Source of the DNA: a virus
Lineage: Duplodnaviria > Caudoviricetes
Strand: one strand, 5' to 3'
DNA: 58,948 bases
Virus record (IMG/VR): IMGVR_UViG_3300005512_000035
Span: 1 to 58,948 of that record
Part shown: positions 1,076 through 53,039 of the stretch, in pieces
How the letters are laid out: each line of letters starts with the position of its first letter
Position numbering within the stretch: position 1 is the stretch's first letter
Position numbers and translations under genes: made by a program
The notes under the pieces: model-generated
The model's database searches: none
Told to the model about the DNA's origin: nothing
Seen by the model: the letters and a program-made list of their open reading frames with translations, nothing else

Positions 1076-1435
1076 ATGGCACATTACGCATTTTTAGATG
1101 AAAACAACGTGGTCACTCAAGTCATTGTAGGTAAGGACGAGACAGGTTTTGACTGGGAACAATACTACGCAATGAAGCGTGGACAGGTTTGTAAGCGCAC
1201 AAGCTACAATACTGTTGGCGGAACACACTCTAATGGCGGCACTCCATTCCGCAAGAACTATGCTGGTGTCGGCTACACTTACGATGCTGACCGTGACGCA
1301 TTTATTTCTCCTCAGCCATTCGCATCGTGGATATTGAACGAAACATCCTGTTTGTGGGAAGCACCTGTTGCATACCCTGATGACGGGCAATCTTATTACT
1401 GGGATGAAGACACAACCAACTGGGTAGCTGAGTAA
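1076..1435 (+). CDS. Conserved tail-associated protein
   Basis: MAHYAFLDENNVV...TSYNT...FRKNYAGVGYTYD...DAFISPQPF.SW family, usually next to glycine-rich fibre genes; ATG at 1076 preferred. Confidence 0.7.
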   Translation: MAHYAFLDENNVVTQVIVGKDETGFDWEQYYAMKRGQVCKRTSYNTVGGTHSNGGTPFRKNYAGVGYTYDADRDAFISPQPFASWILNETSCLWEAPVAYPDDGQSYYWDEDTTNWVAE

Positions 1436-3303
1436 TGCCTTTTACCAAGCTCCAATTCAAACCAGGAATCAACCGCGAGGGTACAAGTTACTCTAACGAA
1501 GGTGGTTGGTACGACGGCAACTATATCCGTTTTAGATACGGGTATGCGGAGCGTATGGGTGGGTGGTCAAAAACTGGTTCTACGCAATTTATAGGCACAG
1601 TCCGTAAGTTACATGATTTCACTACATTGGACAGCCAGAATCTTTTGTTCATGGCTAGTCAGGCTAAAATATACTTAGAAGACTCAGGTGCATTGAGCGA
1701 TATCACTCCGATTCGTGCAACTGTCAGCTTAGGTACAGACCCTATTGAAACAACGGGTGGTGCAGGTAGCGGCACAGTCACTGTAACCACTTCCTCTGCA
1801 CACGGGGCTTCGGTAGGCGACTACATCATACTCAGTGGTCTAACAGATACAGACGGTATTACGGCGGTTCAATTGAATGATGAGTTTGAAATACAGTCTG
1901 TACCAACCACAACAACCTTCACAATCACTACCACAGGCTCAGCTATCACAGGCAGTGTTTCTGGTGGTGGAGCCTCTGGGCAGTGTATATTCTTAATTTC
2001 TACAGGGCTGAACACTTCCATCCTTGGTCCCGGATGGGGCGCAGGCACTTGGGGTCGTTTTACTTGGGGTAGCGGCGCAGGTTCACTTTCTGGGCAAACA
2101 TTACGCCTATGGTTTGCGGATAATTTTGGTGAAGACCTTATATGTAACATTGCTGATGGCACTATTTATTACTGGGATGCAACAGGTGGTACTAGCACTC
2201 GTGCAGTAGCTCTTAGCTCCTTGTCTGGCGCGAGCGATGTTCCTACAGTAGCTCGTAAAGTGTTGGTGTCTGAAATTGATCGTCACGTTTTGTGTTTCGG
2301 CGCGAACGCAATAGACAGTGCAGACCAAGACCCACTGTTGATCCGTTGGTCAAGCCAAGAAAGCCTGACTGATTGGACACCTACCGCAGAAAACACAGCA
2401 GGTGATTTGCGGTTATCACAAGGCAGTGAGATTGTTACCGCAATCCGTACTACTCGGCAGATCCTTGTTTGGACAGACCACTCTTTGCACTCTGTTCAAT
2501 TTGTCGGCGCACCGTATACTTTCGGCACAGCACTACTTGCTGACAACGTCCGTATCGCAGGTCCGAATACCGCAATCGGTGTGAACGATCTTGTGTTTTG
2601 GATGGGGCAAGAAAACTTCTATCTGTACGACGGTCGTGTAACCCCTATCCCTTGTTCTGTACGGGATTATGTATTTAGCGACATGAACCGTAACCAGTCG
2701 TTCAAGTTTCATGCAGGTAGCCTAGCAAGCCAGAATGAGATCTGGTGGTATTACTGTAGTTCTGGTTCAGATGAGATTGATCGTTATGTTGTGTATAACT
2801 ATGCTGAACAAGTTTGGTATTACGGTACTCTACAACGCACCGCTTGGAATGATAGAGCAAGTGGTCAGCGCAGTTACCCACAAGCAACCAGTACAGACAA
2901 CTTTTTATATAACCACGAGTTTGGTTTAGATGACGGCAGTACAGATCCCCCCAGTGCGATTGATGCGTATATAGAATCTAGCGATTTTGACATAGGCGAA
3001 GGTTATCAGTTTATGTTGATCAGGCGCATATTGCCTGACCTTACCTTTAGTGGGTCTACTGCAAGTAGTCCTGTTGTGACGCTAACTATGAAAAGCCGCG
3101 ATTTTAGCGGGGGCTCATACAGTACCTCTGCTAGTGGCACAGTTACTCGGTCTGTTGCTACGCCTGTAGAGGAATATACAGAAGAAGTGTATGTTCGCGC
3201 TCGCGGCAGGCAAATGTCTTTCCGTGTTGAAAACGACACGACAGGTGTTAAATGGCGTGTTGGTGCGCCTCGTTTAGAAGTTCAGCAAGATGGTAGAAGA
3301 TGA
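1435..3303 (+). CDS. Tail tubular/DNA-stabilisation (nozzle) protein
   Basis: 622 aa, beta-propeller-like (IRWSSQE...W.P...NTAGDLRL); lies just before the ejection proteins, as P22 gp10-like genes do. Confidence 0.7.
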   Translation: MPFTKLQFKPGINREGTSYSNEGGWYDGNYIRFRYGYAERMGGWSKTGSTQFIGTVRKLHDFTTLDSQNLLFMASQAKIYLEDSGALSDITPIRATVSLGTDPIETTGGAGSGTVTVTTSSAHGASVGDYIILSGLTDTDGITAVQLNDEFEIQSVPTTTTFTITTTGSAITGSVSGGGASGQCIFLISTGLNTSILGPGWGAGTWGRFTWGSGAGSLSGQTLRLWFADNFGEDLICNIADGTIYYWDATGGTSTRAVALSSLSGASDVPTVARKVLVSEIDRHVLCFGANAIDSADQDPLLIRWSSQESLTDWTPTAENTAGDLRLSQGSEIVTAIRTTRQILVWTDHSLHSVQFVGAPYTFGTALLADNVRIAGPNTAIGVNDLVFWMGQENFYLYDGRVTPIPCSVRDYVFSDMNRNQSFKFHAGSLASQNEIWWYYCSSGSDEIDRYVVYNYAEQVWYYGTLQRTAWNDRASGQRSYPQATSTDNFLYNHEFGLDDGSTDPPSAIDAYIESSDFDIGEGYQFMLIRRILPDLTFSGSTASSPVVTLTMKSRDFSGGSYSTSASGTVTRSVATPVEEYTEEVYVRARGRQMSFRVENDTTGVKWRVGAPRLEVQQDGRR

Positions 3304-3584
3304 CAACCAAAGTTATTCGTACCATATTGCCCGTTGCTCCAAGGGCTTATGACTCTAACTACGTCAACCAATTAGCGCGTAACTTAGACCGTGTTATTGA
3401 TGAGCAACGCAACCCTGTACTGAATATTCAAGACATGCCGAGTGACGGGGTGGCAAACATACTAGAGCAAGGCGACCTGTTTGAAGCAAACGGGTTTGTC
3501 AAAATCAAACGCTTAGGAGATGTCCATTCGGGTAGCTTCTCCGCAACAACAGCCGTAGGAACGGTGACGGTGGAAATATCATGA
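3300..3584 (+). CDS. Hypothetical virion protein
   Basis: 94-aa ORF with ATGA overlaps on both sides. Confidence 0.6.
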   Translation: MTTKVIRTILPVAPRAYDSNYVNQLARNLDRVIDEQRNPVLNIQDMPSDGVANILEQGDLFEANGFVKIKRLGDVHSGSFSATTAVGTVTVEIS

Positions 3585-3820
3585 CAGACAGCACAGTATT
3601 GGTAATGAACGATGGTTCTCGGTGGTCGCCTAGTACAAGCCGAGACATTATTGCATGTGCCACAGAAGGTTGCGGCAACTTGGTAGATACGCCCGCAGAG
3701 GTACAGAGTTACCCGAATGGTAATTGCCCTGATTGTGGTAACCCATGGACAGGCAGTGAGTCTAAACATGTGGAAATAAAAGTAACCGTGCCTCATGCGC
3801 TCGGTGGTGGTGTAGGTTAA
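3581..3820 (+). CDS. Small Zn-ribbon protein
   Basis: C-x4-C...CPDCGNPW motifs. Confidence 0.6.
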   Translation: MTDSTVLVMNDGSRWSPSTSRDIIACATEGCGNLVDTPAEVQSYPNGNCPDCGNPWTGSESKHVEIKVTVPHALGGGVG

Positions 3821-3916
3821 GGTTGCGAGTTTTGACTGTTATGAGTACTATGAATACAGCGCAGATCAGGCTTCGCGACCCTGCATATCGCCCGATACAA
3901 CATTAAGGTGGATAGA

Positions 3917-5605
3917 ATGCAAGGTGTTGCCTCTTTAGGATATGAAGTTCAAGAACTCCCGATGGTTCCGGAAGGGGGTATTCAGCAGTACAGTGACGCC
4001 GCCGATATTCTGGCAGAGTTCGGGCGTAATGGCGACACTTACATTGTTCACGCCGCTGAAGGCGAAACAATGGTTCCCATGGAAGTTTTGGAAAACAATC
4101 CCCGCCTCAAAAGCATGTTGTGGGAACAGTTTGAAGAAATGGGTATTGAGCCAGAGCGTTACATTGTAGGTAACGAGCTCAACAGTCTTAACCCCGTTAC
4201 AGGTAAACCAGAGTTTTTCCTTAAAAAGATTTTCAAAGGCGTTAAGAAGGCTGTTAAAAAGGTCGCTAACGTCGTCAAGAAAGTTGCGCCAATTATCCTC
4301 CCGATTGCCGCTCCTTTCTTACTGCCTGCCATGCCTATCGCTTTTGCTACAGGAATCGGTAGTCTGGCAGGCAACCTCATTGCAGGAAACAGTTTTAAGG
4401 ACTCATTGAAGTCTGCTGTTATTTCTGGTGGTCTGGCAGGGCTTGGTAATGTCGCCTTTGGTGGTAGCGAAGGCTTTGGTTCAGGCAAGTTCTTTGGCTC
4501 TATGGCTAACCCAACCGCAGGGCTTGGTGAGTTCAGCTTGAAACAAGCATTCACACCTGTTAATCCATTTAGCGGGCAGTACAGTCAAACACTTGGAAAC
4601 ATCAAAGCCCAAGGCACAACAGCACAGAGCCAACTTGCTCCTGTGCAGACTGCTCCTGTGCCACCAACAGGGGCAGAACAATATCCCATTAGCCCAGATA
4701 CAGGTGGTGCAGGCATAGACCTCACACAAACACCCCCTACAGAACCGAAAACATTCTTTGGTGATGTTAAGAAAGCCGCGATACCTGGAGATAATTATGG
4801 TCCAGTAGAGTTTTACGGTGACTACATCAGTCCAAGTCGTCCAAGTATCCAACCAACACCTGATGCGATTGCAAACAAGGCCGTTGAAATTGCCAACGCA
4901 GATATCGTGGCGGCGACTAAAGTAAACGAGTCTCTTGTAAATGCAGGGTTGCAGGCCGCACCGATTGATACGGCGGCAATACAAACAGCCGCTATTGAAA
5001 AAGCCAAGGTTGCCTTAGCTCCTAGCATGACACAACAGTACCTCCCACTAGCGGCGGCGGGAACTGCGGCGGCAGTTGGTGCAGATTATGCGACTGATGG
5101 CGCAGTTTTAGGTGTGTTTGGCGAACAACCAGAAGATGGTTCTATTGCAGATATGCCTACAGGTGAAGATTACTACGCACAAGATCCTGGGAAATATGGT
5201 TTCGGATCCGACTTCTATGGTCGTAACCCATATTATCAAGATCCAACCTTTACGCCTCCTGCAGTAAGAACATCGGGAGGTAGTTCTGGGCAAACTATTG
5301 CACAAATGGTAGCTCAAAATACTGCTCCTGTAGCGGCTAACACACCCACTCCGGCAAACACTAGTCCATTTGATCTTGCTCTTGGTGGGTACAACAGAGC
5401 GATGTATCCGTATATCAGAGCGGCAAGTGGTGGTGAAATCGTTGGTCCTGGAACACCAACCAGTGATTCAATACCTGCACTGTTAAGTGACGGTGAGTTT
5501 GTGATGAACGCTCGGGCTGTACGCGGCGCGGGTGGCGGTGACAGAAGAAAAGGCGCACAGCGGATGTATTCAATGATGCGTGACTTTGAGCAGAGGGCTG
5601 TGTAA
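3917..5605 (+). CDS. Internal virion/DNA-ejection protein
   Basis: N-terminal DTYIVHAAEGE...NPVTGKPEF domain, hydrophobic Gly/Ala helices, C-terminal GPGTPTSDSIPALLSDGEFV motif. Confidence 0.65.
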   Translation: MQGVASLGYEVQELPMVPEGGIQQYSDAADILAEFGRNGDTYIVHAAEGETMVPMEVLENNPRLKSMLWEQFEEMGIEPERYIVGNELNSLNPVTGKPEFFLKKIFKGVKKAVKKVANVVKKVAPIILPIAAPFLLPAMPIAFATGIGSLAGNLIAGNSFKDSLKSAVISGGLAGLGNVAFGGSEGFGSGKFFGSMANPTAGLGEFSLKQAFTPVNPFSGQYSQTLGNIKAQGTTAQSQLAPVQTAPVPPTGAEQYPISPDTGGAGIDLTQTPPTEPKTFFGDVKKAAIPGDNYGPVEFYGDYISPSRPSIQPTPDAIANKAVEIANADIVAATKVNESLVNAGLQAAPIDTAAIQTAAIEKAKVALAPSMTQQYLPLAAAGTAAAVGADYATDGAVLGVFGEQPEDGSIADMPTGEDYYAQDPGKYGFGSDFYGRNPYYQDPTFTPPAVRTSGGSSGQTIAQMVAQNTAPVAANTPTPANTSPFDLALGGYNRAMYPYIRAASGGEIVGPGTPTSDSIPALLSDGEFVMNARAVRGAGGGDRRKGAQRMYSMMRDFEQRAV

Positions 5606-6549: not shown

Positions 6550-9140
6550 TGGCTAATGGTGTAATGAACCGCCCAATGTTCGCAGGGGCTATGCCTGCTC
6601 CTAGTTCTGTAGGAACAGGTATTACTTCTGGTTTGGTTGATCCTGCTGTTGAGCAGGCAACAGCAGAACAAGGGTTCGCGCAACTTGCAGGTATGACCCA
6701 AAATACCATCGAAAAGTTGGACACAGCAGAAACGGTAGACGAAGCAATGAATGCTATTCGTGGTGACCAAGCTACTGAAAAAGAGCGTCGCCAAGAACTC
6801 GCGAGTTATGTTGGTAAAACAGATGCCAATAAAACACCGACCAGTGTTCTAGCTATGCTTCAGCCTACCTTTACTATTATGGACATGATCCAGAATAATG
6901 CCCCCGAAGGTGGAATCGCTAATGCTATGCCACAGGCGGGAGGTGGACAGCCCGCCGGAAATTTTAGCCAAGCCTCCGCTGTTCAAGCTCCAGGAATGGA
7001 GGAGGCAATGATGCGTATGATGGCAGGTGAACAGCCTGTTCGTCGTCAGGTAGGTAGTAGTCCTTATGGGGAAGTCATACCTAAAATACCGCAAATCAAT
7101 GTTGGTCCCCGACCTGCCGTACCCACCTTGAATCTACCGTATGTAGAAACAAACACTCGCCCTAGTCTGCAAAGCATTGACATGGGGAATGTTAGTGGCT
7201 ACGCGAACGAATACATGCAGTTGATGAAACCTTATTTAGAATCAGCTCAGTTTGGTGCAGGACCAAGTACAACGGAAGCACTTGATCAGCTTTCTCCGTA
7301 TATGCCTAAAACGCAAACACCTGAAGATTTGATTGCTCGTAACCGTGGGTTGCTAGAGCAATACCTACCTCAAAAACGAACTTCGGCTGAACTGCTTAAA
7401 GAGTATCAAGATATGCTCGGCGCAGGCGATGATGACCAAGCTCAACTGCAAGCGTACCTTGCACTTGCTCAAGCGGGTCAAGCTGTTGCACAGTCTGATA
7501 AGAACTTACTCGGCGCGGCAATCGAAGGCGGCGGTGTTCTTTCTGAAAAGTTAGCACCTATCGCGGCGGCTAAAGCACAGCAAGACCGTCAACTTAAATT
7601 AGCGGCACTTGCTGAGTCTAAAGAACAAGCAAGGGCGCGTGATGCGGCAGAAGCTAACATCGTTACAGGTGCGATTAGCCAGTCTGACCAGATGGCACAA
7701 GCCTTCCAAGGCGCACAGTTGAACGTCGCTCTGGATGCTATCAACCGTTCAGTCAATGCTAACTCTAAAGCAACCGATGCAGTATTGGGCGCGGCAAGTG
7801 ATGCAATTAAGAATGGTATTACATTAGATGCTAACCGTGCTGATGTACTCAACAAAGAGGTGTTAGCTCAATGGAACGCTAATAACCAGTATGGCACGAC
7901 AGCTACTGAATCATGGGGTAAATACAACCCAGAAACTAAATCATGGGATATTATCGGGGTACGTCGTACCGCCGATGGTCTCAAGATGGTCGATCCGGAC
8001 GGTGGTAGCTTCAAGCCTATACCCGAGGGGTACTCACTATGGACAAAAGATATTGCTGAAGCCAAGGGTGGCACATCAGCTGTTGACCTCAGCAAAGCCA
8101 AGCGGGAAGATATTTTGATTCCTGATCCTGCTTCACCAAGTGGTTATAGCCAAGTTCCTGGATTCTTTACGGGTGGTATCTACTTCGTCAGCCCAGATGG
8201 TAACCCTGCTAATGCTCAAGTGGCTCCGGCAGGATTCATTCGTGGTAACGAAAAAGATGTACTTACAGTGGCACAGCCTGATGGCGTGGGTCGTGTGTTC
8301 GTTACTGTTAAAACAGGACCAAAAGCAGGACAGACGTTCTTGTCTTCAGTGGCAGGTAAGCCTGTTGTGGGTGCGGCGTATGCTCTGGAAGCACCTGTGC
8401 GTGATGATGCAGGAGCATTGGTCAGTGGTAACCCGATGGTTTACACAGTACCGAATCCTGGGGTCGGTTTTGCTAATATGACAAGCCAACAAGTAGAGCA
8501 AGCTCAACGTAAGGTAATGGATATGACGCAGGCGATTACTGCGGCAAACGAAATCCTACCTAACATTGGCGATGCCATTGGTCCGCTGAACACTGTTAAA
8601 GCGTGGACTTCTAACGTGGTTGGCGCAGTTGCTCCTGATTCATGGGCAGGCTTGACAGAATACGCGGCAACCGAGCGTGGCAGACAACAAATGAACTTGT
8701 TTGCACGAAACTTGTCCCGAGCTCTTGCGCTTTCTGACCGTTACGCGGTTGCGGAACAGCAGTTGATTCGTGAGATGGCGGAAAACCCAGAAGGTTTCTG
8801 GAAGAACCCGAACATGTCAGAGGTCAAGTTCCAAGAAATGATGCGCGTGTTGCAGAACGAACTATCCTTTAACCGTGGTCTGCTTTCAGACAGCGATGAG
8901 ATCCCACAGTTGAACGCTATTCCTACGGGTAGCGTGAATGATCCATTCATGTACGGAGCTCCTGGACAGTTTGAATACTTGACCATCACTATGGCGAACG
9001 CAGGTAATCGTGACGCATTGAATGGTAGGGTTATCCGCATGACCGCAAGTGAAGCACAACGTAATGGCATTCCACAGAACTTGTGGAAGGGTAAAGACTT
9101 TGTTGATCTAGAAATCGGCAAAGACATCAATATTCGGTAA
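6549..9140 (+). CDS. Large internal virion protein
   Basis: 863 aa, N-terminal NRPMF...GITSGL motif, helical; lies in the ejection cluster. Confidence 0.6.
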   Translation: MANGVMNRPMFAGAMPAPSSVGTGITSGLVDPAVEQATAEQGFAQLAGMTQNTIEKLDTAETVDEAMNAIRGDQATEKERRQELASYVGKTDANKTPTSVLAMLQPTFTIMDMIQNNAPEGGIANAMPQAGGGQPAGNFSQASAVQAPGMEEAMMRMMAGEQPVRRQVGSSPYGEVIPKIPQINVGPRPAVPTLNLPYVETNTRPSLQSIDMGNVSGYANEYMQLMKPYLESAQFGAGPSTTEALDQLSPYMPKTQTPEDLIARNRGLLEQYLPQKRTSAELLKEYQDMLGAGDDDQAQLQAYLALAQAGQAVAQSDKNLLGAAIEGGGVLSEKLAPIAAAKAQQDRQLKLAALAESKEQARARDAAEANIVTGAISQSDQMAQAFQGAQLNVALDAINRSVNANSKATDAVLGAASDAIKNGITLDANRADVLNKEVLAQWNANNQYGTTATESWGKYNPETKSWDIIGVRRTADGLKMVDPDGGSFKPIPEGYSLWTKDIAEAKGGTSAVDLSKAKREDILIPDPASPSGYSQVPGFFTGGIYFVSPDGNPANAQVAPAGFIRGNEKDVLTVAQPDGVGRVFVTVKTGPKAGQTFLSSVAGKPVVGAAYALEAPVRDDAGALVSGNPMVYTVPNPGVGFANMTSQQVEQAQRKVMDMTQAITAANEILPNIGDAIGPLNTVKAWTSNVVGAVAPDSWAGLTEYAATERGRQQMNLFARNLSRALALSDRYAVAEQQLIREMAENPEGFWKNPNMSEVKFQEMMRVLQNELSFNRGLLSDSDEIPQLNAIPTGSVNDPFMYGAPGQFEYLTITMANAGNRDALNGRVIRMTASEAQRNGIPQNLWKGKDFVDLEIGKDINIR

Positions 9141-10397: not shown

Positions 10398-11966
10398 ATG
10401 TCTTTCCAAGACTGGAAAACGTTCCGTGACCAAGTTAGCTCAGAAATCGGTAAGAACATGGCAGTGGGTAACAAGACTGCTGTGCGTCAACTTGCTATTC
10501 TTGCAAAAGAATTAGACAACATGGGTACGGCGTATGGTCGTACCAATGAGAAGTTTGAAGAGTTCCGTGCATGGTACGACACAAACGTGATCCTGCCTTA
10601 CGAGCGTAGTGGTGTAATTAAACTCACTGCAAAAGCTCCTGGAGGAACAGCAGACCGTCCTGAGTATTACCTACCTGACGAGCGTGTAGCGGCTACTTTC
10701 TTGGAAAACTCCAACACAGCGCGGCAGTGGATGACATTGTTTGGTGAAACACCTGCTCGCATGGATAACATCAAGGCAACGGTACTAGATCAAATCCGCA
10801 ACCAAGCCTTTGTTCGTAGTAAAGGTACATTTGACCCAACGAAGGTAGATCAGTACATTAACAAGAACCGTGATGTGTTGACGGAGCTTGGCTTAATTGA
10901 CGATATCACCAATACGCAAACACTTGTTGATGACCTGGTCGGGCGTCAAGCTGACCTCACCGCACGGCGTAGGGTGATTAGCAGTAACCTACTGTTTAAA
11001 GCGATTGGTCGCGCACAGAATACAGACAGCCCAGAAAAACTGTTGAACGAAGCACTCAACAGTCCTGCGCTAATGCGCGAACTGAAAACAGCAGTGGTCA
11101 AAGATACAGACCAACTGAGCGCAACCGAAGCAGGGGAAGCGTTCCGTGCCGCAGTCACACAGCGTTTGTTAGCCAAAGCACCAGATGCAATGGAGAATCC
11201 TGCCAAGTTCAAGCAGTGGCTTTCTGACAACGAACGTGTGCTTGACGCCGCATTTGATAAATCTCATGTTGATAACATGTATCTCATTGCAGACCTTGCT
11301 GAGCGTATCCTCGCAACAGGTATGCCGAAGGGTACAGGGGTACAACAAGAAAACCTGATTACTCGCATTACAAATAGTTTGGGTACTACTCCTGCGGGTG
11401 TATCCAACCGTTTTATTGCGGTACAAGAAGGACGTCTTGGTCCACGGGCGGCGATCGGTTATGTACTTAGCCGTAGTATCAGCGCACAATCAAGCGCACG
11501 ATCAGATGCCTTGTTCCGTGAAATGATGTTCGATCCTAATCTTGCAAAAGCATTGGCAACGGAAGCTCCTGAGTCAACAGCCCCATTGCAGATATCGCCT
11601 GCTCAAAAGCGGGTGATCAATACTTACTTGTTCAACTTAGGTATTGACTACGGTGAAGATATAACAGGTCCAGGAGCAGAAGAAACAGTCATATTGACCC
11701 CTAATGTTCCAGAAAACCCTGTTACAACTCAACCACCAACTCCGGCTCCCCCGCCGCCACTTCCGCCAAGAAGTTATACGCCTCTTGGCGTCCCGCAAGG
11801 TAGCCAACCCGCTCCCCCTGCGCCGACTGTAACACCAACAAGCACAAGTGGTGGAATCACATCGCTTGCTCCCGGACAGCAAAAGGCTTCCGCATCAGAG
11901 TTATTTCCTTTTGACCCGACTCTAGCGGCAATCGAGCGTAGAGGCGGGGCTAACCGAATGACATAA
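10398..11966 (+). CDS. Large internal virion protein, C-terminal part
   Basis: Frame open from 10365; weak RBS; Pro-rich tail ending LFPFDPTLAAIERR. Confidence 0.55.
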   Translation: MSFQDWKTFRDQVSSEIGKNMAVGNKTAVRQLAILAKELDNMGTAYGRTNEKFEEFRAWYDTNVILPYERSGVIKLTAKAPGGTADRPEYYLPDERVAATFLENSNTARQWMTLFGETPARMDNIKATVLDQIRNQAFVRSKGTFDPTKVDQYINKNRDVLTELGLIDDITNTQTLVDDLVGRQADLTARRRVISSNLLFKAIGRAQNTDSPEKLLNEALNSPALMRELKTAVVKDTDQLSATEAGEAFRAAVTQRLLAKAPDAMENPAKFKQWLSDNERVLDAAFDKSHVDNMYLIADLAERILATGMPKGTGVQQENLITRITNSLGTTPAGVSNRFIAVQEGRLGPRAAIGYVLSRSISAQSSARSDALFREMMFDPNLAKALATEAPESTAPLQISPAQKRVINTYLFNLGIDYGEDITGPGAEETVILTPNVPENPVTTQPPTPAPPPPLPPRSYTPLGVPQGSQPAPPAPTVTPTSTSGGITSLAPGQQKASASELFPFDPTLAAIERRGGANRMT

Positions 11967-19432: not shown

Positions 19433-20461
19433 ATGGCACATTTAGTTGAAACAATGGCGTATGCGGGGGAGACCCCTTGGCACGGACTAGGCACACAGGT
19501 TGACCACACTATGTCACCTGAAGAAATGCTGAAGGCCGCACAGATTGACTGGACAGTTAGTAAGCGTCCTGCTTACACAACGGACAGCCCAGACATCTGG
19601 AACTTGAACGACCCTACCAGTGAAGCAAACTTCCTGCGAGCACCAGACAACTACTTCTTGGTGCGGGACAGCGATAACAAAGTGCTGTCGCCCTGCGGTG
19701 AAAGTTATGTACCGTTCCAAAACTCTGAAGTGATGAACTTCTTCAAGAAGTTTACCGATGCAGGCCACATGACTATGGAAACAGCAGGTAGCCTGAAAGA
19801 TGGTAAGGACATCTGGGGGTTAGCCAAGCTGACCGACCAGTTCCGCCTAGCAGGTGACGACGAGGTGAAGGGTTACCTACTCCTGAACAATAGTCACCAA
19901 GTGGGTAAGGCAATGACCATTATGTTCACGCCTATCCGTGTGGTTTGTAACAACACACTCACGATGGCACTGAACACGCAAGGTCAACGCTTCCGCGTCT
20001 TACACCTACAAATGTTCGACGAGGAGATCCAACGGGCGGCTGAGGAAGCCTTGGGCTTGAGTGGCATGCAAATGAAACAGTTCCAAGAGCAGTCCGAGTT
20101 CTTGTCTAGCAAGAAAGCTAAGAAGTTCGATCTTGACAACTTCATTGCCGAGCTGTTCCAACCGAACCTGCTCATTGAGCGAGCCAAAGCACCTAACCCA
20201 GACGAGCTACCGCCTCTGCACGAGGAGTTCAAGCGCACAGCGGAACTTGTAAAAGAGGCTGTGGAAACCAGTCCTGGAGCTAACATGTCTTCCGCCAAGG
20301 GGACATGGTGGGGTGCGCTCAACGCTGTGACCTATGTGGTGGATCACCAGAAAAAGTCGCAGGCTGAGGGTAACGCTTTGCACTCTGCTTGGTTTGGCTC
20401 CGGCGCGAACACCAAGCGTAAGGCACTGACCAAGGCTATTGAGTATGCCGAAGTCGCATAA
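19433..20461 (+). CDS. DUF932-family (TIGR03299-like) phage/plasmid protein
   Basis: MAH.VETMAY...PWHGLG, FQN, ETAGSL..GK, TPIRVVCNNTL, GTWWGALNAVT.YVDH. Confidence 0.85.
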   Translation: MAHLVETMAYAGETPWHGLGTQVDHTMSPEEMLKAAQIDWTVSKRPAYTTDSPDIWNLNDPTSEANFLRAPDNYFLVRDSDNKVLSPCGESYVPFQNSEVMNFFKKFTDAGHMTMETAGSLKDGKDIWGLAKLTDQFRLAGDDEVKGYLLLNNSHQVGKAMTIMFTPIRVVCNNTLTMALNTQGQRFRVLHLQMFDEEIQRAAEEALGLSGMQMKQFQEQSEFLSSKKAKKFDLDNFIAELFQPNLLIERAKAPNPDELPPLHEEFKRTAELVKEAVETSPGANMSSAKGTWWGALNAVTYVVDHQKKSQAEGNALHSAWFGSGANTKRKALTKAIEYAEVA

Positions 20462-20482
20462 TTGACAAAGTAGTTCTTGTCG

Positions 20483-20520
20483 CGGTAGTGTTCATAAAGT
20501 AAAATGAACACTACCGTTTT
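20483..20520 (+). terminator. 13-bp inverted repeat plus T-run (terminator or operator)
   Basis: CGGTAGTGTTCAT-aaagtaaa-ATGAACACTACCG-TTTT; TTGACA at 20462. Confidence 0.55.
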
Positions 20521-20540
20521 CCATAGAAAGGGAGATAAAA

Positions 20541-29924: not shown

Positions 29925-30184
29925 TGACCCGCACCATGACAGGTTTGCGGAACATTGAGATTAATGTCCTGGACTTCAATTCACCTGTGTGCATTGACGT
30001 CCGGGTTCATTATAAGAAATGGACTGCAAGTGAAGATGAGCCAGAAGGTTGGGAGATCACAGGCATATTCCAAGAAGACGGATACTGTGCGTCTGTGGTG
30101 GAAAACTCAGGAATATGGAAAATGATTGAGCGCACCTTCGCTCCCGAAGTCACCGACAAAGATGATGATGAGATCCCGTTCTGA
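29924..30184 (+). CDS. Hypothetical protein with SSB-like acidic tail
   Basis: AGGAGG RBS; ends DDDEIPF. Confidence 0.6.
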   Translation: MTRTMTGLRNIEINVLDFNSPVCIDVRVHYKKWTASEDEPEGWEITGIFQEDGYCASVVENSGIWKMIERTFAPEVTDKDDDEIPF

Positions 30185-35414: not shown

Positions 35415-35645
35415 GTCCCCTGTTTATTATTATCAATCATCCTCGCGGCATCCCATTCCTTGGGAAACACCGTCCCATCCTAGAAGAGGAAGAGTCTGTG
35501 TCCGAGATCCTTCTCCTATATATTCGTACTAGGCGTTATAATAATTATCAATCATCCTCTCGTCTCGTCTCGTCGTTGTGCGACGCACCAAAAATGACGA
35601 CCTGGTCGTCATTAAAAATAGTTGATAAAAAAGTTCAAAAAGTGC

Positions 35646-47792: not shown

Positions 47793-47804
47793 CAGGAGAC
47801 TCAA

Positions 47805-48835: not shown

Positions 48836-48845
48836 GGTGAAATTC

Positions 48846-49754: not shown

Positions 49755-49765
49755 GGGGTTAATTC

Positions 49766-50455
49766 ATGGCGACTTCTGGCTCTAAAGATTTTGAACTTGA
49801 TGTAGCTGACTACATCGAGGAAGCGTTTGAGCGTTGCGGCTCTGAGGTGCGTACTGGTTACGACCTTAAAACCGCAAAGAGGTCGCTTAACCTGCTTTTG
49901 GCAGACTGGGCTAACCGAGGTTTAAACCGTTGGACAATCGAGCAAACATCAACGGCACTCACTGCGGGTACAGCAAATTATGCCTTGGGTGCAGATACGA
50001 TTGATGTGTTGAGTGCGGTTATTCGTACAAATGCGGGACAGTCTAACCAGTCAGACATTATTTTGACTCGTGTGAGTAGGGACGCTTATATCAATATCCC
50101 TAGCAAAAACACACAGGCTCGTCCTACACAATATTATATGGATCGGCAGATTAACCCAGAAATCAAGTTATGGCCTACTCCAGACAGTGCGACGACGTAC
50201 ACTTTAGTGTACGACAGACTTGTGCGTATGGACGACGCTGATGTTCAAACTAACACCTTGGATCTGCCTTTTCGCTTTTATCCCTGTCTTGCGGCGGGGT
50301 TGGCGTATTATCTGGCGATGAAAAAAGCACCAGATCGTATCCAAATTTTGAAGGCGGTGTACGAAGAAGAGTTTGAGCGGGCGGCGGCAGAAGACCGTGA
50401 CCGTGCGAGCTTGAGCCTTACACCAAGTAGGGACTATTACACGTTTATCTCATGA
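49766..50455 (+). CDS. Head-tail adaptor / tail tubular protein A-like
   Basis: IEEAFERCG...A.RSLNL..ADWANRG.N.W...GLAYY. Confidence 0.7.
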   Translation: MATSGSKDFELDVADYIEEAFERCGSEVRTGYDLKTAKRSLNLLLADWANRGLNRWTIEQTSTALTAGTANYALGADTIDVLSAVIRTNAGQSNQSDIILTRVSRDAYINIPSKNTQARPTQYYMDRQINPEIKLWPTPDSATTYTLVYDRLVRMDDADVQTNTLDLPFRFYPCLAAGLAYYLAMKKAPDRIQILKAVYEEEFERAAAEDRDRASLSLTPSRDYYTFIS

Positions 50456-50748
50456 AGTATGCGATCGGGAAACATTCACTTGCGATATGCGACCGTTGCG
50501 GTTTTGAGTACCGCTACCTAGAACTACGCAAAGAATGGAACGGTTTAAGGGTTTGCCAAGAGTGCTACGAACCAAAGCACCCTCAGCTAGAGCCTAGCCC
50601 ACCACCGTTTGAGCCTCAGGCGTTGTATGACCCACGCCCTGCTAGAGTTGAGCCAATGGTTGTGGCTGTTGGCGAAAATGTGTTTAATGAAAGTAAGCCA
50701 TTACAAGCGATCACGCAGGTAGGGCTAGTTACAGTGGTGATCTCATGA
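50452..50748 (+). CDS. Small Zn-finger virion-module protein
   Basis: CDRCGF...EWNG..VC.EC.EPKHPQL. Confidence 0.7.
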   Translation: MKYAIGKHSLAICDRCGFEYRYLELRKEWNGLRVCQECYEPKHPQLEPSPPPFEPQALYDPRPARVEPMVVAVGENVFNESKPLQAITQVGLVTVVIS

Positions 50749-51392
50749 GCTATACCTTGACCGAATTAAAACAGGCGATACAAGACTACTGTGAGAATAC
50801 AGAGACCACGTTTGTAAACAACCTAAATAATTTTATTCAGTCTGCCGAACAACGTATTTTTACTACGGTTGATCTAGAGTATTTCCGCCGTAACCAGACA
50901 GCTACCATGACCACAGGTAATCAGTATCTTAACTGTCCTGCGGACTATCTGGCTTCTTTTAGTTTGTCTATTACGGTGTCTGGCGACAAGCAGTTCTTAT
51001 TGCAGAAAGACGTGAACTTTTGCCAAGAGTTTGCTCCTGATGCAACCGTCACAGGTGTACCTAGATACTATGCGCGGTTTGACACGACCAACTTTATTGT
51101 TGCACCTACACCAGATGCAGATTATGCGGTAGAGCTACACTACTATTATCGCCCATCTAGCTTGACTGCGGCAGGTGGTTCAGGTACTACATGGCTGAGT
51201 GAAAATGCTCCTAACGCTATGCTGTACGGAAGTCTTGTTGAAGCATATACTTTTATGAAAGGCGAAAAAGATCTGATGGATCTGTACAATGGTCGGTTTA
51301 TAGAGGCTATTGGTCGCATTAAAGACTTGGCGGAGGCGCGTGAAAACGCTGATGCTTACCGTCGTGGATTACCAGAAAGGCCAAGAACTTAA
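50745..51392 (+). CDS. Head-tail adaptor protein
   Basis: ELKQAIQDY.EN...AE.RI...G.PRYY...APTPD..Y...LYGSLVEAY. Confidence 0.7.
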   Translation: MSYTLTELKQAIQDYCENTETTFVNNLNNFIQSAEQRIFTTVDLEYFRRNQTATMTTGNQYLNCPADYLASFSLSITVSGDKQFLLQKDVNFCQEFAPDATVTGVPRYYARFDTTNFIVAPTPDADYAVELHYYYRPSSLTAAGGSGTTWLSENAPNAMLYGSLVEAYTFMKGEKDLMDLYNGRFIEAIGRIKDLAEARENADAYRRGLPERPRT

Positions 51393-51685
51393 TGTTTGAG
51401 TTAAAACTAGAAGTTCCACAAGAACCCTTTGTGGTTGTTGAAACAACAGAAGGGCGTGGTTTTACGCCTGAAGAAGTTGCTGAACGTTGTGTTCGCAAGA
51501 TTGTATCTGTCTCAGATTCTGCTCATCCAGGAATCCGAGATCAGGCAAACGCTTTCAAAGCTCACATTGAAAAAGTGGTTGCTTTTTATATGAGGGAGGC
51601 TATTCGTAGTGACAGAACTACTGTATATAACGCCCTCAAGGATGCAGGTCAACCAGAACTCGCCGAACTCATAAGGAGACTTTGA
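51392..51685 (+). CDS. Hypothetical protein
   Basis: TT.GRG.TPEE.A...I.DQA.AF motif. Confidence 0.65.
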   Translation: MFELKLEVPQEPFVVVETTEGRGFTPEEVAERCVRKIVSVSDSAHPGIRDQANAFKAHIEKVVAFYMREAIRSDRTTVYNALKDAGQPELAELIRRL

Positions 51686-51686
51686 T

Positions 51687-52127
51687 ATGGCAATTACACA
51701 AGCAATGTGTACTTCTTTCAAGCAAGAGTTGCTTGAAGGACAGCACGATTTCCGTACATCAGGCCACACTTTTAATGTCGCGTTGTATACAAGCTCCGCA
51801 ACTTTAGGTGCTTCTACAACCGATTATACAACTTCTAATGAAGTTAGTGGTACAGGTTACTCAGCAGGTGGTCAAGCACTGACCAACGTCAACCCGACTA
51901 CAAGTAGCACGACAGCGTTTACCGATTTTGCGGATGAGACATTTACCACGGCTACTATTACTGCTCGCGGTGCGTTGATCTATAACACCACAACAGGTGG
52001 TGGATCAGGCACTACAGATTCAGTGATTGTCCTCGACTTTGGCAGTGATAAAACATCAACAGCAGGTGATTTTACTATCCAGTTCCCAACTGCTGACGCT
52101 TCTAACGCTATTATTCGAATAGCTTAA
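51687..52127 (+). CDS. Virion/tail structural protein
   Basis: MAITQAMCTSFK.ELL...ALYTS.A...GY.AGG..L...ARGALIYN...LDFG.DK. Confidence 0.7.
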   Translation: MAITQAMCTSFKQELLEGQHDFRTSGHTFNVALYTSSATLGASTTDYTTSNEVSGTGYSAGGQALTNVNPTTSSTTAFTDFADETFTTATITARGALIYNTTTGGGSGTTDSVIVLDFGSDKTSTAGDFTIQFPTADASNAIIRIA

Positions 52128-52142
52128 CGGGAGTAACCCGTT

Positions 52143-53039
52143 ATGGCGAACATTACTGGATGGGGTAGAGGCACATGGAGTGAAGGTGCATGGAACGAAG
52201 GCGTTCCTGTTGTACTCACTGGTGTTTCAGCTACTGGTAATGTTGGCAGTGTCACTGTTGATGCCGCCGCTAATGTTCCTACAACGGGTATTGCCGCGAC
52301 AACAGGTGTTGGCTCAGTTACTGTCTCCGCTGATGCTAATACCTCTGTTACAGGACAAGTAGGCACAGGCGCGACAGGCTCCGTTTCCGTTACGGGAACA
52401 GCTAATGTTTCAGCTACTGGTTCTGCCGCAACAGGTTCTGCAGGCTCTGTTGATGTATCAGCAGATGCCAATGCTCCTGCTACAGGAATTACTGCCACAG
52501 GTAATGTAGGCAGTGTTCTCGTTTCTGCTGACGCGAATGTTAATGTTACTAGTCCCGCGCTTACAGCGTCGATCGGTTCTGTTGATATTATTGCCGATGC
52601 AAACGTCCCAGCCACAGGAATAGATGCCACTGGCTTAGTAGGCTCTGTTACAATCAATGCTGATGCCAATGTCAGCGTTACCGGTGAGTCTGCCACGGCT
52701 GACGTAGGCACTATCACTACAACGGCAGATGCCAATGTATTCCCAACAGGAGCGGTTGCAACTGGAGAAATAGGAACGGCAACGATTAGCGGTGATGCTA
52801 ATGTTCCAACAACGGGATTGTCAACAACAGGTCAAACTGGTACTGTGACGGTAGTTGCTGAGGCCACTGTTCTTCCAACAGGAGTTTCAGCCACGGGTCA
52901 AACTGGTACGGTGTTCGTTTGGAGTCAGATAGATCCAAACCAGAACCCTAACTGGTCTGGTATATCACCCGCGCAGAGTCCAGGTTGGTCTTCTGTAACA
53001 CCATCGCAAACACCTAATTGGGACGAAATTGCGGCGTAG
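52143..53039 (+). CDS. Repetitive tail-fibre shaft protein
   Basis: About 23-aa tandem repeats (ATG.VG.V.V.ADANV..TG); Trp-Gly N-terminus. Confidence 0.7.
   Translation: MANITGWGRGTWSEGAWNEGVPVVLTGVSATGNVGSVTVDAAANVPTTGIAATTGVGSVTVSADANTSVTGQVGTGATGSVSVTGTANVSATGSAATGSAGSVDVSADANAPATGITATGNVGSVLVSADANVNVTSPALTASIGSVDIIADANVPATGIDATGLVGSVTINADANVSVTGESATADVGTITTTADANVFPTGAVATGEIGTATISGDANVPTTGLSTTGQTGTVTVVAEATVLPTGVSATGQTGTVFVWSQIDPNQNPNWSGISPAQSPGWSSVTPSQTPNWDEIAA

What the first reader, a model, noticed from the sequence alone, without database searches (positions are those of the whole stretch)
1435..52600. CCGG and CCWGG survive almost only when flanked by T (TCC.. or ..GGA)
Hand count: all of roughly 45 CCGG sites in the core genome are TCCGG or CCGGA. 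The 7 exceptions (871, 919, 52680, 54031, 54293, 55410, 56520) are all in tail-fibre genes. About 40 of roughly 43 CCWGG sites are TCCWGG or CCWGGA (exceptions 10933, 35600, 54718). By chance only about 45% of sites would have such a flank. Inference: a bulky modified T directly 5' of the site may shield it from host restriction or methylation, so the bias could be a genomic footprint of the modification's sequence context (T in 5'-TC). Alternative: avoidance of degenerate VCCGGB and VCCWGGB sites.
Basis: partly seen in the sequence, partly recalled or inferred. Interest (0 to 1): 0.8.

Follow-up and report, generated by a model that had tools for sequence, protein, structure and literature searches.

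The report
Thymine-flank rule at purged restriction sites
In this marine phage, which carries genes for chemically modifying its thymines, the restriction-type words CCNGG and CCGG survive only where a T sits directly in front of them, most likely because the modified T shields the neighbouring site from host enzymes.

Summary
All 48 of 48 CCGG sites in 1435-52600 are TCCGG or CCGGA, as are 60 of 67 in the whole window. So are 41 of 44 CCWGG and 8 of 8 CCSGG sites. In 300 synonymous-codon shuffles, unflanked CCGG is 7 against 74.5±7.1 and unflanked CCWGG 3 against 46.4±5.6. Flanked sites sit near expectation.

The window is a complete HTVC023P-type marine phage. It carries a 5-hmdU DNA kinase, a glycosyltransferase and a thymidylate-synthase-like gene.

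New here:
- The CCNGG rule holds across the clade: 5 unflanked of 439 CCWGG contexts in 164 cassette-bearing loci.
- It is absent from 82 cassette-less relatives, which match expectation at 319/311/82.
- It is graded by the number of flanking T (0 < 1 < 2).
- It reaches protein level: Pro-Gly dipeptides have an O/E of 0.41, and the Gly is written GGA in 208 of 229.
- The CCGG half cannot be separated from ordinary RCCGGY avoidance plus the CCNGG rule.

Best reading (0.6): a hypermodified T next to the site shields it. No chemistry was tested, and both the host and the selecting enzyme are unknown.

This scan had already noted the same footprint in three other phage genomes. My four literature searches found no paper describing it.

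The parts
1435..52600 (.). Core genome in which every CCGG (48 of 48) and 40 of 42 CCWGG sites have T directly 5' on at least one strand.
   Evidence: for the counts. Codon-shuffle nulls.
19433..20461 (+). DUF932 / TIGR03299 phage-plasmid-like protein at the head of the cassette. Function unknown.
   Evidence: PF06067, 3.4e-48. TIGR03299, 232.7 bits against a cut-off of 110.7. Present in 129 of 164 clade loci and 0 of 82 controls.
20541..21131 (+). 196-aa ORF with no family match, poorly conserved (26-50% identity in relatives).
   Evidence: Searches gave no hit. One search gives the identities.
21135..22034 (+). 5-hmdU DNA kinase (HMUDK helical domain).
   Evidence: PF18723, 3.7e-51, 174.6 bits against a cut-off of 25; 33-37% identity to the M6/Yua/PaMx11-group homologues.
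22058..23350 (+). Putative GT-B fold glycosyltransferase. Sequence support is weak.
   Evidence: Glyco_trans_1_4 at 26.5 bits against 27, Glycos_transf_1 at 23.7 against 26.4, Glyco_transf_4 at 22.3 against 28.5. All are just under the cut-offs. No PDB or NCBIfam match. Found in 71 of 164 clade loci.
23391..24362 (+). Thymidylate-synthase-superfamily enzyme. Inferred to be a pyrimidine (dUMP) hydroxymethylase.
   Evidence: PF00303, 71.3 bits; far below every TS equivalog cut-off; the best solved relative is CMP 5-hydroxymethylase (5b6d, 5.3e-14), ahead of canonical TS.
24332..24739 (+). 135-aa ORF homologous to the stretch of Pam3 annotated gp54 'nucleotide modification'.
   Evidence: 44.6% identity over 101 aa to L120 41785-42087. 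Annotation.
24832..26748 (+). Family A DNA polymerase, used as the marker for relatives.
26703..27293 (+). HD-domain 5'-deoxynucleotidase-like protein. Inferred to clear canonical dTMP/dTTP.
   Evidence: YfbR-like 32.3 bits, HD_3 29.6 bits. Present in 144 of 164 clade loci and 0 of 82 controls.
10934..10938 (.). Core CCWGG exception 1, within GACCTGGTCG. The -1 pair is A:T, and the T on the other strand is followed by C.
35601..35605 (.). Core CCWGG exception 2, in the same 10-mer GACCTGGTCG.
52143..58948 (+). Tail-fibre end module. It holds 5 of the 7 unflanked CCGG sites and 1 unflanked CCWGG.
   Evidence: tail-fibre PHROGs for 53049-53657, 53993-55090, 55390-56391, 57519-57902 and 57899-58948. 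Site positions.
1..1435 (+). Other end of the record, next to the tail-fibre module if the genome is circularly permuted. It holds 2 unflanked CCGG sites. Together with 52600-58948 it holds 9 of the 11 GCTGG/CCAGC words, 7 of them in this stretch.
   Evidence: ORF 169-1065 matches phrog_2295, of unknown function.

Best explanation
**What the phage is.** A virulent HTVC023P-type marine phage. It probably replaces T by 5-hydroxymethyl-U and then decorates part of those bases after replication. The enzymes would be a 5-hmdU DNA kinase and a glycosyltransferase; in relatives the tailoring enzymes are other ones.

**The proposed mechanism.**
- The bulky group in the major groove protects recognition sites that contain or touch a modified T.
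- Sites made only of G and C stay exposed and are purged.
- CCNGG cannot always be purged, because every Pro-Gly codon pair spells it. There the phage keeps the site only with a T directly 5' of CC, on one strand or better on both. That T is by construction in a 5'-TC-3' step.
- This flanking modified T blocks the host enzyme that selects against CCNGG.
- That enzyme is either a CCNGG/CCWGG nuclease or a cytosine methyltransferase whose mark a methyl-dependent nuclease reads.
- The central T of CCTGG, which sits in a TG step, does not protect.

**What is shown.** The sequence law, its codon independence, its spread across the clade, its dose dependence, its effect on protein sequence, and the presence of the cassette.

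**What is inferred.** That T is modified, that the modified T lies in the TC step, that steric shielding is the cause, and what the selecting enzyme is.

**The CCGG rule** in this genome is either the same shield or ordinary RCCGGY avoidance added to the CCNGG rule.
For: 1. **Selection falls on unflanked sites only.**
   - CCWGG with 0/1/2 flanking T: 3/22/19 against 45.6/38.2/7.3.
   - CCGG: 7/52/8 against 73.7/59.8/10.5.
   - CCSGG: 0/4/4 against 20.1/20.6/3.9.
   - 0 of 300 shuffles go as low.
2. **Synonymous sites are recruited.**
   - 43 of 44 Pro-Gly pairs have at least one T flank.
   - Gly is GGA in 33 of 44, against 271 of 1510 overall.
   - The preceding codon ends in T in 32 of 44.
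3. **The rule is clade-wide.**
   - 164 cassette-bearing loci give CCWGG 5/145/289 of 439 unique contexts, against 254/160/25 expected.
   - Of 37 sequence clusters with at least 5 CCWGG sites, 31 have none unflanked and the other 6 have one each.
   - The rule holds with GT-B (3/80/150) and without it (3/68/133).
   - First-order Markov O/E is 0.01/0.24/2.59 for CCWGG and 0.03/0.14/1.02 for CCSGG.
   - All non-T subclasses are near zero: R..Y 4 against 308, mixed 0 against 263, C..G 0 against 57.
4. **Protein level.** Pro-Gly O/E is 0.41 in clade representatives (229 against 552.3) and 0.97 in controls. Gly-Pro is 0.90 in both.
5. **Cassette-less relatives.** In 82 loci, 0 of 82 have kinase, TS, GT, DUF932 or HD. 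Their CCWGG counts are 319/311/82 against 321/314/77.
6. **Independent kinase-bearing lineages show T-flank rules at other cores.** This argues that T, rather than one enzyme's taste, is the common factor.
   - G001: CCWGG 9/119/25 against 68/68/17, but no rule at CCSGG or CCGG.
   - G003: GCGC 17/161/34 against 101/90/20, with all non-T classes depleted.
7. **G/C-only palindromic hexamers are the most purged class in the clade.** They stand at 65 against 578, while T-containing classes have O/E of 0.50-0.77. In controls the G/C-only class is 162 against 89.
8. **No phage DNA methyltransferase explains the protection.** PF00145, PF01555 and PF02086 give 0 matches.
9. **Literature.**
   - Resistant sites in M6, ViI and phiW-14 DNA are rich in TG/TC. 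The kinase was proposed as the source of that specificity, and a flanking T (tGCCGGC) was proposed to add resistance (PMC6449724, section 10 read in full, passages of sections 9 and 19).
   - The TS + kinase cassette of HTVC023P-type clades V, VIII and IX is described in PMC9599517 (passages).
10. **Secondary hint for the TC step.** Where -1 is A, -2 is G in 49 of 101 CCWGG half-sites. Background is 0.16 and controls give 0.16.
Against: - No chemical or enzymatic evidence exists for this phage.
- The glycosyltransferase call rests on three Pfam matches that all fall just under their cut-offs.
- The cassette-less controls do not avoid these words at all. They also avoid palindromes far less (O/E 0.86 against 0.59). 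They probably face different hosts, so the association with the cassette is confounded with host.
- Distant kinase phages (M6, Pa-S, Ab19, Simon, Pam3) show no CCNGG/CCGG flank rule. M6, Pa-S and Pam3 even lack TCCGGA altogether, 0 against 34-39 expected.
- A TC-flanking T does not rescue other purged words in the window. TCCAGC is 2 against 32 and TCGCGA is 4 against 15.2.
- A TG-flanking T does not rescue GCWGC (0 sites), TGGCCA (0 against 14.6) or TGCGCA (1 against 12.6).
- ViI DNA is reported resistant to BstNI at CCTGG, attributed to the central T (PMC6449724, figure legend passage). That is the opposite of what I infer here for the central T.
- The CCNGG rule is constant over a clade whose other purged words vary (GCWGC, GGCC). 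That is unexpected for strain-specific restriction systems. It needs either a conserved host enzyme or a cause inside the lineage.
- The loci are related and cover mostly the replication module plus or minus 10 kb, so counts are not independent events.
Confidence: 0.6

Rival explanations
1. Intrinsic flank specificity. The host enzymes that select against these words simply do not accept T at -1. Their true sites would be VCCNGGB and VCCGGB, and the phage's modification would be irrelevant.
For: Descriptively this fits the counts equally well. The cassette-less controls are not under the same selection, so they cannot exclude it.
Against: - It needs the same 'not T' requirement in unrelated specificities: CCNGG in the clade, CCWGG only in G001, and GCGC and GGCC in G003. 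Each time it would have to occur in a phage carrying the T-modifying kinase.
- I recall no enzyme with such a V...B site. That is recall, not a test.
- The dose effect (0T 0.01, 1T 0.24, 2T 2.59) fits two independently blocked half-sites.
- G/C-only words are the most purged class.
Confidence: 0.12
2. Composite of ordinary degenerate sites. Several standard specificities together (RCCGGY, CCSGG, and others) mimic a T-flank rule.
For: - For CCGG this is exact: VCCGGB equals RCCGGY plus CCSGG-containing words.
- The same genome purges RGCGCY in the ordinary way, 1 against 52.6, while keeping CGCGCC and AGCGCG.
- In relatives that keep unflanked CCGG, 65 of 81 such sites are RCCGGY.
Against: - It cannot produce the CCWGG and CCSGG laws. 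R..Y, C..G and mixed subclasses of CCWGG are all near zero (4 against 308, 0 against 57, 0 against 263).
- CCCGGA/TCCGGG survive (7 against 15) while CCCGGB is 1 against 26.8.
Confidence: 0.08
3. Lineage-intrinsic agent. The phage lineage itself makes a nuclease that attacks CCNGG, for example to degrade host or competitor DNA. Its own genome is safe only where modified T flanks the site.
For: The CCNGG rule is constant over 48 clusters with G+C of 34-55%, whereas other purged words vary between them.
Against: - No nuclease candidate was found among the cassette ORFs.
- The only genes shared with the independent rule-bearing contig G001 (as locus L034) and with L033, another kinase-bearing locus that also lacks unflanked CCWGG (0/9/6) and CCGG (0/1/3), are helicase, Pam3 gp32-34-like genes, kinase, TS-like, HD and PolA. 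Pam3 has all of these and shows no rule.
- G001 follows the rule for CCWGG but not CCSGG. That fits host enzymes of differing specificity.
Confidence: 0.07
4. Codon-pair, dinucleotide or mutational bias with no link to defence.
For: Most CCWGG sites (34 of 42 in the core) lie in one frame, at Pro-Gly.
Against: - Synonymous shuffles preserve codon usage and never approach the observed values (0 of 300).
- The CCGG rule holds in all three frames.
- Related phages without the cassette show none of it.
- The Pro-Gly dipeptide itself is depleted.
Confidence: 0.02

Closest known systems
Restriction-site (short palindrome) avoidance in phage genomes
   Same: Short palindromic words are under-represented against a composition- and codon-corrected null. 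In the window the 64 palindromic hexamers stand at 361 against 804, and nine of them are absent. Degenerate sites such as RGCGCY are purged as a class.
   Different: Here the avoidance depends on one flanking base outside the word, and specifically on T. It is also graded by the number of flanking T. My four searches found no paper describing such a flank-conditional footprint. The general literature on palindrome avoidance is recalled, not read here.
5-hmdU-derived thymidine hypermodification (M6 5-NedU, ViI 5-NeOmdU, phiW-14) with proposed TG/TC preference
   Same: The window has the same kinase family (PF18723) next to a TS-like gene, an HD nucleotidase and PolA. PMC6449724 (section 10 read in full) reports that resistant restriction sites are rich in TG/TC. 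It also suggests that a flanking T can add resistance.
   Different: - The tailoring enzyme here is a putative GT-B glycosyltransferase rather than the aGPT-Pplase2/PLP/radical-SAM set. In relatives it is TAGT plus radical-SAM/SPASM.
- M6 and its relatives do not show the CCNGG/CCGG footprint.
- M6 DNA is reported to be fully methylatable by M.HpaII and M.MspI (PMC6449724, passage of section 11). Its CCGG sites are therefore accessible.
HTVC023P-type pelagiphage clades V, VIII and IX with a DNA-hypermodification gene pair
   Same: Same phage type and genome size (mean 58.8 kb). The cassette of TS plus 'aG/PT-PPlase1' (the kinase family), with a 5'-deoxynucleotidase and a putative glucosyltransferase, lies next to PolA (PMC9599517, passages).
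   Different: The passages I read describe gene content and phylogeny only. They do not mention word usage or flank effects. I did not place the window in their clade numbering.
Oligosaccharide-hypermodified thymidine phages (SP-15, YerA41, Carin-5)
   Same: Bulky sugar- and phosphate-bearing groups on thymidine, encoded beside the polymerase (PMC12686479, passages). G003, which shows a TG-type flank rule, has the UDG-fused PolA typical of that group.
   Different: Those are large myoviruses. The word 'kinase' does not occur in that paper's text. The window's PolA has no UDG domain.

Membership tests
Restriction-site avoidance footprint | Short palindromic words are under-represented against a codon-preserving null. 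| tested here: met
   Unflanked CCGG is 7 against 74.5, GCWGC is 0 against about 135, and palindromic hexamers are 361 against 804.
Restriction-site avoidance footprint | The avoided words match restriction-modification specificities of the host. | not testable with these tools
   The host is unknown. The window has no tRNA genes. Sequencing-run hits are marine, estuary and oyster metagenome contigs only.
5-hmdU-derived thymidine hypermodification system | A 5-hmdU DNA kinase (HMUDK) is present. | tested here: met
   PF18723, 174.6 bits against a cut-off of 25.
5-hmdU-derived thymidine hypermodification system | A TS-family dUMP hydroxymethylase supplies hmdU. | tested here: inconclusive
   A TS-superfamily protein is present. 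It falls below all TS equivalog cut-offs. Its nearest solved relative is a CMP 5-hydroxymethylase. The substrate was not determined.
5-hmdU-derived thymidine hypermodification system | Tailoring by aGPT-Pplase2, PLP or radical-SAM enzymes, as in M6 and ViI. | tested here: not met
   No such Pfam match was found in the seven cassette ORFs of the window that I scanned. A weak GT-B match occupies that position. Relatives carry TAGT plus radical-SAM/SPASM.
5-hmdU-derived thymidine hypermodification system | Modified thymidine is present in virion DNA. | not testable with these tools
   Only assembled contigs are available.
TG/TC (TS) dinucleotide-specific modification (PMC6449724) | Protection is tied to T followed by G or C. 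| tested here: inconclusive
   - The TC flank gives a strong effect at CCNGG and CCGG.
- The TG flank gives weaker effects at GGWCC (O/E 0.41/0.77/1.34) and at TGCGCA versus AGCGCT.
- There is no rescue at GCWGC, TGGCCA, TCCAGC or TCGCGA.
HTVC023P-type phages | Shared core genes and synteny with HTVC023P. | tested here: met
   23 window ORFs match HTVC023P, including TerL 56%, portal 53%, capsid 73% and PolA 51%, and 23 match 023Pt_psg01. Searches show the same gene order (primase, helicase, PolA).

The most novel reading that the evidence does not exclude
Genome sequence alone reads out where a phage's thymine hypermodification sits and how far its shield reaches. In this clade a modified T in a 5'-TC step protects the adjoining CC half-site. 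In another kinase-bearing phage (G003) a T in a 5'-TG step protects GCGC and GGCC. If so, the dinucleotide specificity of 5-hmdU DNA kinases could be predicted for uncultured phages from flank-conditional word usage. The arms race over one DNA word also reshapes proteins, through depletion of Pro-Gly.
Probability: 0.45. Interest if true: 0.75.

Novelty: new variant of a known kind. Interest (0 to 1): 0.62.

Why it matters
- **A cheap predictor.** If the reading holds, flank-conditional word usage would predict three things from sequence alone: that an uncultured phage's DNA is hypermodified, on which dinucleotide step, and which host enzymes still threaten it.
- **Bench prediction.** It tells which restriction enzymes will and will not cut such DNA. 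The prediction is resistance at TCCNGG and TCCGG.
- **Limits of the shield.** The shield would reach about one base pair, and two flanks work better than one.
- **Reach into proteins.** Defence evasion at the DNA level constrains protein sequence: Pro-Gly is depleted 2.4-fold across the clade.
- **Scope.** The phage type is abundant in the ocean, and near-identical DNA turns up in metagenome contigs from 15 studies.

Tried and rejected
**Searches that gave little.**
- A megablast of 8 kb against GenBank phages found nothing. Protein-level searches placed the phage instead.
- The script stopped with a division by zero at GCWGC, because the word has no sites. The CCWGG exceptions were printed later.
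- Alignment A1 contained a one-residue dummy row that I added by mistake. I discarded it and remade it as A2.
It did not reach distant kinase lineages.
- The search with the L034 kinase found only 3 short further loci. I did not analyse them. I fetched the whole contigs G001-G003 instead.

**Negative results.**
- DUF932: 13 papers mention it. None of the 13 titles or abstract starts in the listing points to a function; I opened none of them.
- Pfam scans of ten small ORFs at 28.9-36.2 kb gave only DUF6876 and a small terminase subunit.
- No DNA methyltransferase was found, and no tRNA.

**Sequencing runs.** All 23 runs listed are kept as assembled contigs. Contigs cannot show base modification, so I did not lay reads. 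Shares under 0.2 were not used.

**Papers.** The Carin-5 paper concerns a different phage type and serves only as chemical precedent. Supplementary Tables 1-3 of PMC6449724 give enzyme-by-enzyme results, including HpaII, MspI, BstNI and ScrFI-type enzymes. I could not open them, and they bear on how far flanking T protects in M6, ViI and phiW-14.

**Ideas considered and dropped.**
- McrBC-type R-mC targeting of MspI-type methylation: ACCGGA-type sites are common here.
- Very-short-patch repair or deamination bias: neither acts on the -1 position.

Full report
**What the window is.** The window is a complete 58,948-bp IMG/VR virus record, 48.2% G+C, with a CheckV completeness of 100%. Nearly all genes lie on the + strand. 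By protein similarity it is an HTVC023P-type marine phage.
- PolA is 57% identical to phage 023Pt_psg01 and 51% to Pelagibacter phages HTVC023P and HTVC027P.
- 23 window ORFs match HTVC023P, and gene order is shared.
- An insert lies between the helicase and PolA, and the two cultured or GenBank relatives lack it. The insert holds:
  - DUF932 (19433-20461);
  - an unknown ORF;
  - a 5-hmdU DNA kinase (21135-22034; PF18723, 174.6 bits against a cut-off of 25);
  - a putative GT-B glycosyltransferase (22058-23350; three Pfam matches, all just under their cut-offs);
  - a TS-superfamily protein (23391-24362), whose best solved relative is a CMP 5-hydroxymethylase and which lies far below the TS equivalog cut-offs;
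  - a small Pam3 gp54-like ORF.
- An HD nucleotidase follows PolA.
- A TS + kinase cassette of this kind has been described in HTVC023P-type clades V, VIII and IX (PMC9599517, passages read).

**The observation.**
- All 48 of 48 CCGG sites in 1435-52600 are TCCGG or CCGGA, as are 60 of 67 in the whole window. The seven exceptions lie in the end module, 52.1-58.9 kb plus 1-1.4 kb.
- 41 of 44 CCWGG, 8 of 8 CCSGG and 49 of 52 CCNGG sites are flanked.
Its counts are slightly low.
- For comparison, GGCC is flanked at 41 of 66 sites, GCGC at 125 of 196 and CGCG at 85 of 174.

**Is it chance or codon usage?** No. I shuffled synonymous codons within each of 87 ORFs 300 times.

| Word | Class | Observed | Shuffled |
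|---|---|---|---|
| CCGG | flanked | 60 | 70.5±7.1 |
| CCGG | unflanked | 7 | 74.5±7.1 |
| CCGG, core only | unflanked | 0 | 62.9 (minimum 44) |
| CCWGG | flanked | 41 | 44.7±5.7 |
| CCWGG | unflanked | 3 | 46.4±5.6 |

Split by the number of flanking T, as 0/1/2:
- CCWGG is 3/22/19 against 45.6/38.2/7.3.
- CCGG is 7/52/8 against 73.7/59.8/10.5.
- CCSGG is 0/4/4 against 20.1/20.6/3.9.

None of the 300 shuffles is as low in the 0T class. The CCGG rule holds in all three reading frames.

**Synonymous sites are visibly recruited.** Every Pro-Gly codon pair spells CCNGG. Of 44 Pro-Gly pairs:
- 43 have at least one T flank;
- the Gly codon is GGA in 33 of 44, although GGA is 271 of 1510 Gly codons overall;
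- the preceding codon ends in T in 32 of 44.

The one pair without a flank is in a tail-fibre gene.

**What exactly is avoided.** For CCGG, all six non-T flank classes are depleted (7 against 74.7), while the four T classes are near expectation (60 against 69.7). But VCCGGB is exactly RCCGGY plus the words that contain CCSGG. The same genome purges RGCGCY in the ordinary way (1 against 52.6) while keeping CGCGCC and AGCGCG. So an R..Y-type degenerate site is a live alternative for the CCGG half.

Relatives settle what can be settled. Where unflanked CCGG persists, 65 of 81 such sites are RCCGGY. For CCWGG no such decomposition exists. In 37 representative sequences, R..Y is 4 against 308, mixed classes are 0 against 263 and C..G is 0 against 57.

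The robust law is therefore 'CCNGG needs a flanking T'. The CCGG rule in this window is either the same law or RCCGGY avoidance added to it.

**Relatives with the cassette.**
- I fetched 33 loci through the kinase, 80 through PolA and further ones through a kinase alignment. After leaving out L001, L089 and the three distant loci L032-L034, this gave 164 loci.
- In those 164 loci, counting each 35-nt context once, CCWGG is 5/145/289 of 439 against 254/160/25 expected. CCSGG is 15/36/49 of 100 and CCGG is 111/324/53 of 488.
- With L089 put back, the 165 loci collapse to 48 clusters by shared 25-mers.
- Of 37 clusters with at least 5 CCWGG sites, 31 have no unflanked site and six have one. Only 11 of 27 clusters with at least 5 CCGG sites have none.
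- The rule holds whether the GT-B gene is present (3/80/150) or not (3/68/133).
- Where GT-B is absent, the slot is filled by TAGT plus radical-SAM/SPASM or by unknown 320-340-aa proteins.
- Other purged words differ between relatives. GCWGC is 0 in some and above expectation in others, and the same is true of GGCC and GGSCC.
- First-order Markov O/E across the representatives is 0.01/0.24/2.59 for CCWGG and 0.03/0.14/1.02 for CCSGG. It is 0.10/0.52/0.42 for CCGG and, more weakly, 0.41/0.77/1.34 for GGWCC. GCWGC and CGCG show no flank effect.

**Relatives without the cassette.** In 82 loci of 023Pt/HTVC023P-like phages, 0 of 82 have kinase, TS-like, GT, DUF932 or HD. Their CCWGG is 319/311/82 of 712 against 321/314/77, which is exactly neutral.

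The control is weaker than it looks, however. These phages do not avoid these words at all (O/E 1.3-1.5). They also avoid palindromic hexamers much less, at 0.86 against 0.59. G/C-only hexamers stand at 162 against 89 in the controls and 65 against 578 in the cassette clade. They probably meet different hosts, so cassette and host are confounded.

**Protein level.** Pro-Gly has an O/E of 0.41 in 36 clade representatives (229 against 552.3). It is 0.97 in controls, while Gly-Pro is 0.90 in both. Of the 229 remaining Pro-Gly pairs, 228 have a T flank, 164 have both, and 208 use GGA. Even flanked sites therefore carry a cost, and two flanks are preferred.

**Other kinase-bearing phages.**
- M6, Pa-S, Ab19, Simon and Pam3 (50 kb of each) show no CCNGG/CCGG flank rule. 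M6, Pa-S and Pam3 have 0 TCCGGA against 34-39 expected.
- Two independent IMG/VR lineages with Pam3-like replication modules do show the rule. G001 (77.6 kb, terminal repeats) has CCWGG 9/119/25 against 68/68/17, but its CCSGG (35/37/6) and CCGG follow no rule.
- G002 is a 23-kb fragment. It has CCWGG at 0/9/6 and CCGG at 0/1/3.
- G003 has a kinase 36% identical, a UDG-fused PolA and DUF1599. It shows a T-flank rule at different cores: GCGC 17/161/34 against 101/90/20, with every non-T class depleted and every T class enriched, and GGCC 32/127/28. Its TCCGGA is 0 and TCGCGN is depleted.

The flank effect is thus always about T. It appears at whichever G/C word is under selection, and in TC context in one lineage and TG in another. 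This is my main argument against an intrinsic 'not-T' taste of one enzyme family. The difference between CCWGG-only (G001) and CCNGG (the clade) points to host enzymes of differing specificity, and not to something built into the modification machinery.

**Which T protects.**
- The central T of CCTGG, in a TG step, does not protect, because unflanked sites vanish even though each has one.
- A T at -2 shows no clear effect.
- Both core CCWGG exceptions are the same word, GACCTGGTCG. There the -1 pair carries a T on the other strand, followed by C.
- Across the clade, half-sites with A at -1 have G at -2 in 49 of 101 cases. Background is 0.16, controls give 0.16, and there is no such effect for CCGG or CCSGG. 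This hints at the TC step, but Gly-Pro-Gly coding could contribute.
- Against a general TC shield: TCCAGC is 2 against 32 and TCGCGA is 4 against 15.2.
- In the window, TC-containing palindromic hexamers are less depleted (154 against 219) than the rest (207 against 585). Across the clade the difference is modest, 0.73 against 0.57.

**Published context.**
- PMC6449724 (section 10 read in full, passages of sections 9, 11, 17 and 19) reports that resistant sites in M6, ViI and phiW-14 DNA are rich in TG/TC. It proposes the kinase as the source of that preference and notes that a flanking T (tGCCGGC) may contribute.
- The same paper reports ViI DNA as resistant to BstNI at CCTGG. It also reports M6 DNA as fully methylatable by M.HpaII and M.MspI.
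- PMC8989533 (passages) shows the M6 kinase acting on fully hmU-substituted SP8 DNA.
- For PMC5889632 I saw only the search listing and the start of the abstract.
- My four searches found no paper describing a flank-conditional word-usage footprint. That is not proof that none exists.
- This scan had noted the same footprint in three other phage genomes: gut-type, freshwater and one more. Those are unchecked AI notes. I tested the idea only on this window and its relatives.

**Verdict.** The shield interpretation is the best available and fits all the comparative data I could gather. It remains an inference from sequence. The modification, its context and the selecting enzyme are untested, the host is unknown, and the CCGG half may be partly ordinary RCCGGY avoidance.

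Noticed in passing
window, whole; sites listed at 236-1262, 47151, 47349, 52608, 57920: GCWGC has no site at all (about 135 expected). The asymmetric word CCAGC/GCTGG is 11 against 120, whereas CCTGC/GCAGG is 208 against 135. The purged set is therefore SCAGC/GCTGS. A T in front does not rescue it (TCCAGC 2 against 32). 9 of the 11 survivors lie in the end module.
   Followed up: partly
window, whole: There is general purging of palindromic hexamers (361 against 804), and nine are absent: AAGCTT, TGGCCA, AGCGCT, GGTACC, TACGTA, GCGCGC, GGCGCC, GTGCAC, GCCGGC. RGCGCY is 1 against 52.6 and GGGCC about 1 against 50. Hexamers built on GATC or CATG, and TCCGGA, are spared.
   Followed up: partly
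window 52143-58948 and 1-1435: The tail-fibre end module breaks two genome-wide rules, holding 7 unflanked CCGG sites and 9 GCTGG/CCAGC words. It still has no GCWGC. This suggests recent acquisition from a phage under different selection.
   Followed up: partly
G003 = L267-L270 (contig of L032): A different kinase-bearing phage with a UDG-fused PolA and DUF1599 keeps GCGC and GGCC almost only as TGCGC and TGGCC. It purges TCCGGA, ACCGGT and TCGCGN, and has almost no GGWCC (1 site).
   Followed up: partly
L117 (M6), L121 (Pa-S), L120 (Pam3): TCCGGA is absent (0 against 34-39 expected) in three kinase-bearing phages of Pseudomonas and Pseudanabaena. In them a doubly T-flanked CCGG is the purged word, not the protected one.
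   Followed up: no
L119 (Pseudomonas phage Ab19): There are only 12 GGWCC sites in 50 kb, and none lacks a flanking T (0/5/7 against 6.7/4.5/0.8).
   Followed up: no
window, all ORFs: Gly-Pro dipeptides are also depleted in the window (40 against 68.2). They are not depleted in the clade as a whole (0.90). This fits this genome's own purge of GGNCC words.
   Followed up: no
L003, L028, L034, L015, L063 (between the kinase and the TS-like gene): The tailoring slot of the cassette is swapped between close relatives. It holds GT-B, or TAGT plus radical-SAM/SPASM, or radical-SAM plus an unknown protein, or a single unknown 320-340-aa protein. L034 adds an FkbM methyltransferase and a GT4-like protein.
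   Followed up: partly
G002 = L265 7567-8359 (contig of L033): The kinase match is split over two frames (7567-8079 and 8147-8359). That means a frameshift or two genes.
   Followed up: no
window 27913-28434: A T4 endonuclease V-like pyrimidine-dimer glycosylase (PF03013, 28.9 bits) lies just downstream of the cassette. It is conserved in most clade loci, and a homologue is annotated in 023Pt_psg01.
   Followed up: no
window 20000-29999: Near-identical DNA occurs in assembled contigs of 20 marine, estuary, oyster and viral metagenome runs from 15 studies. The two best runs hold 0.72 and 0.59 of the sampled words.
   Followed up: no
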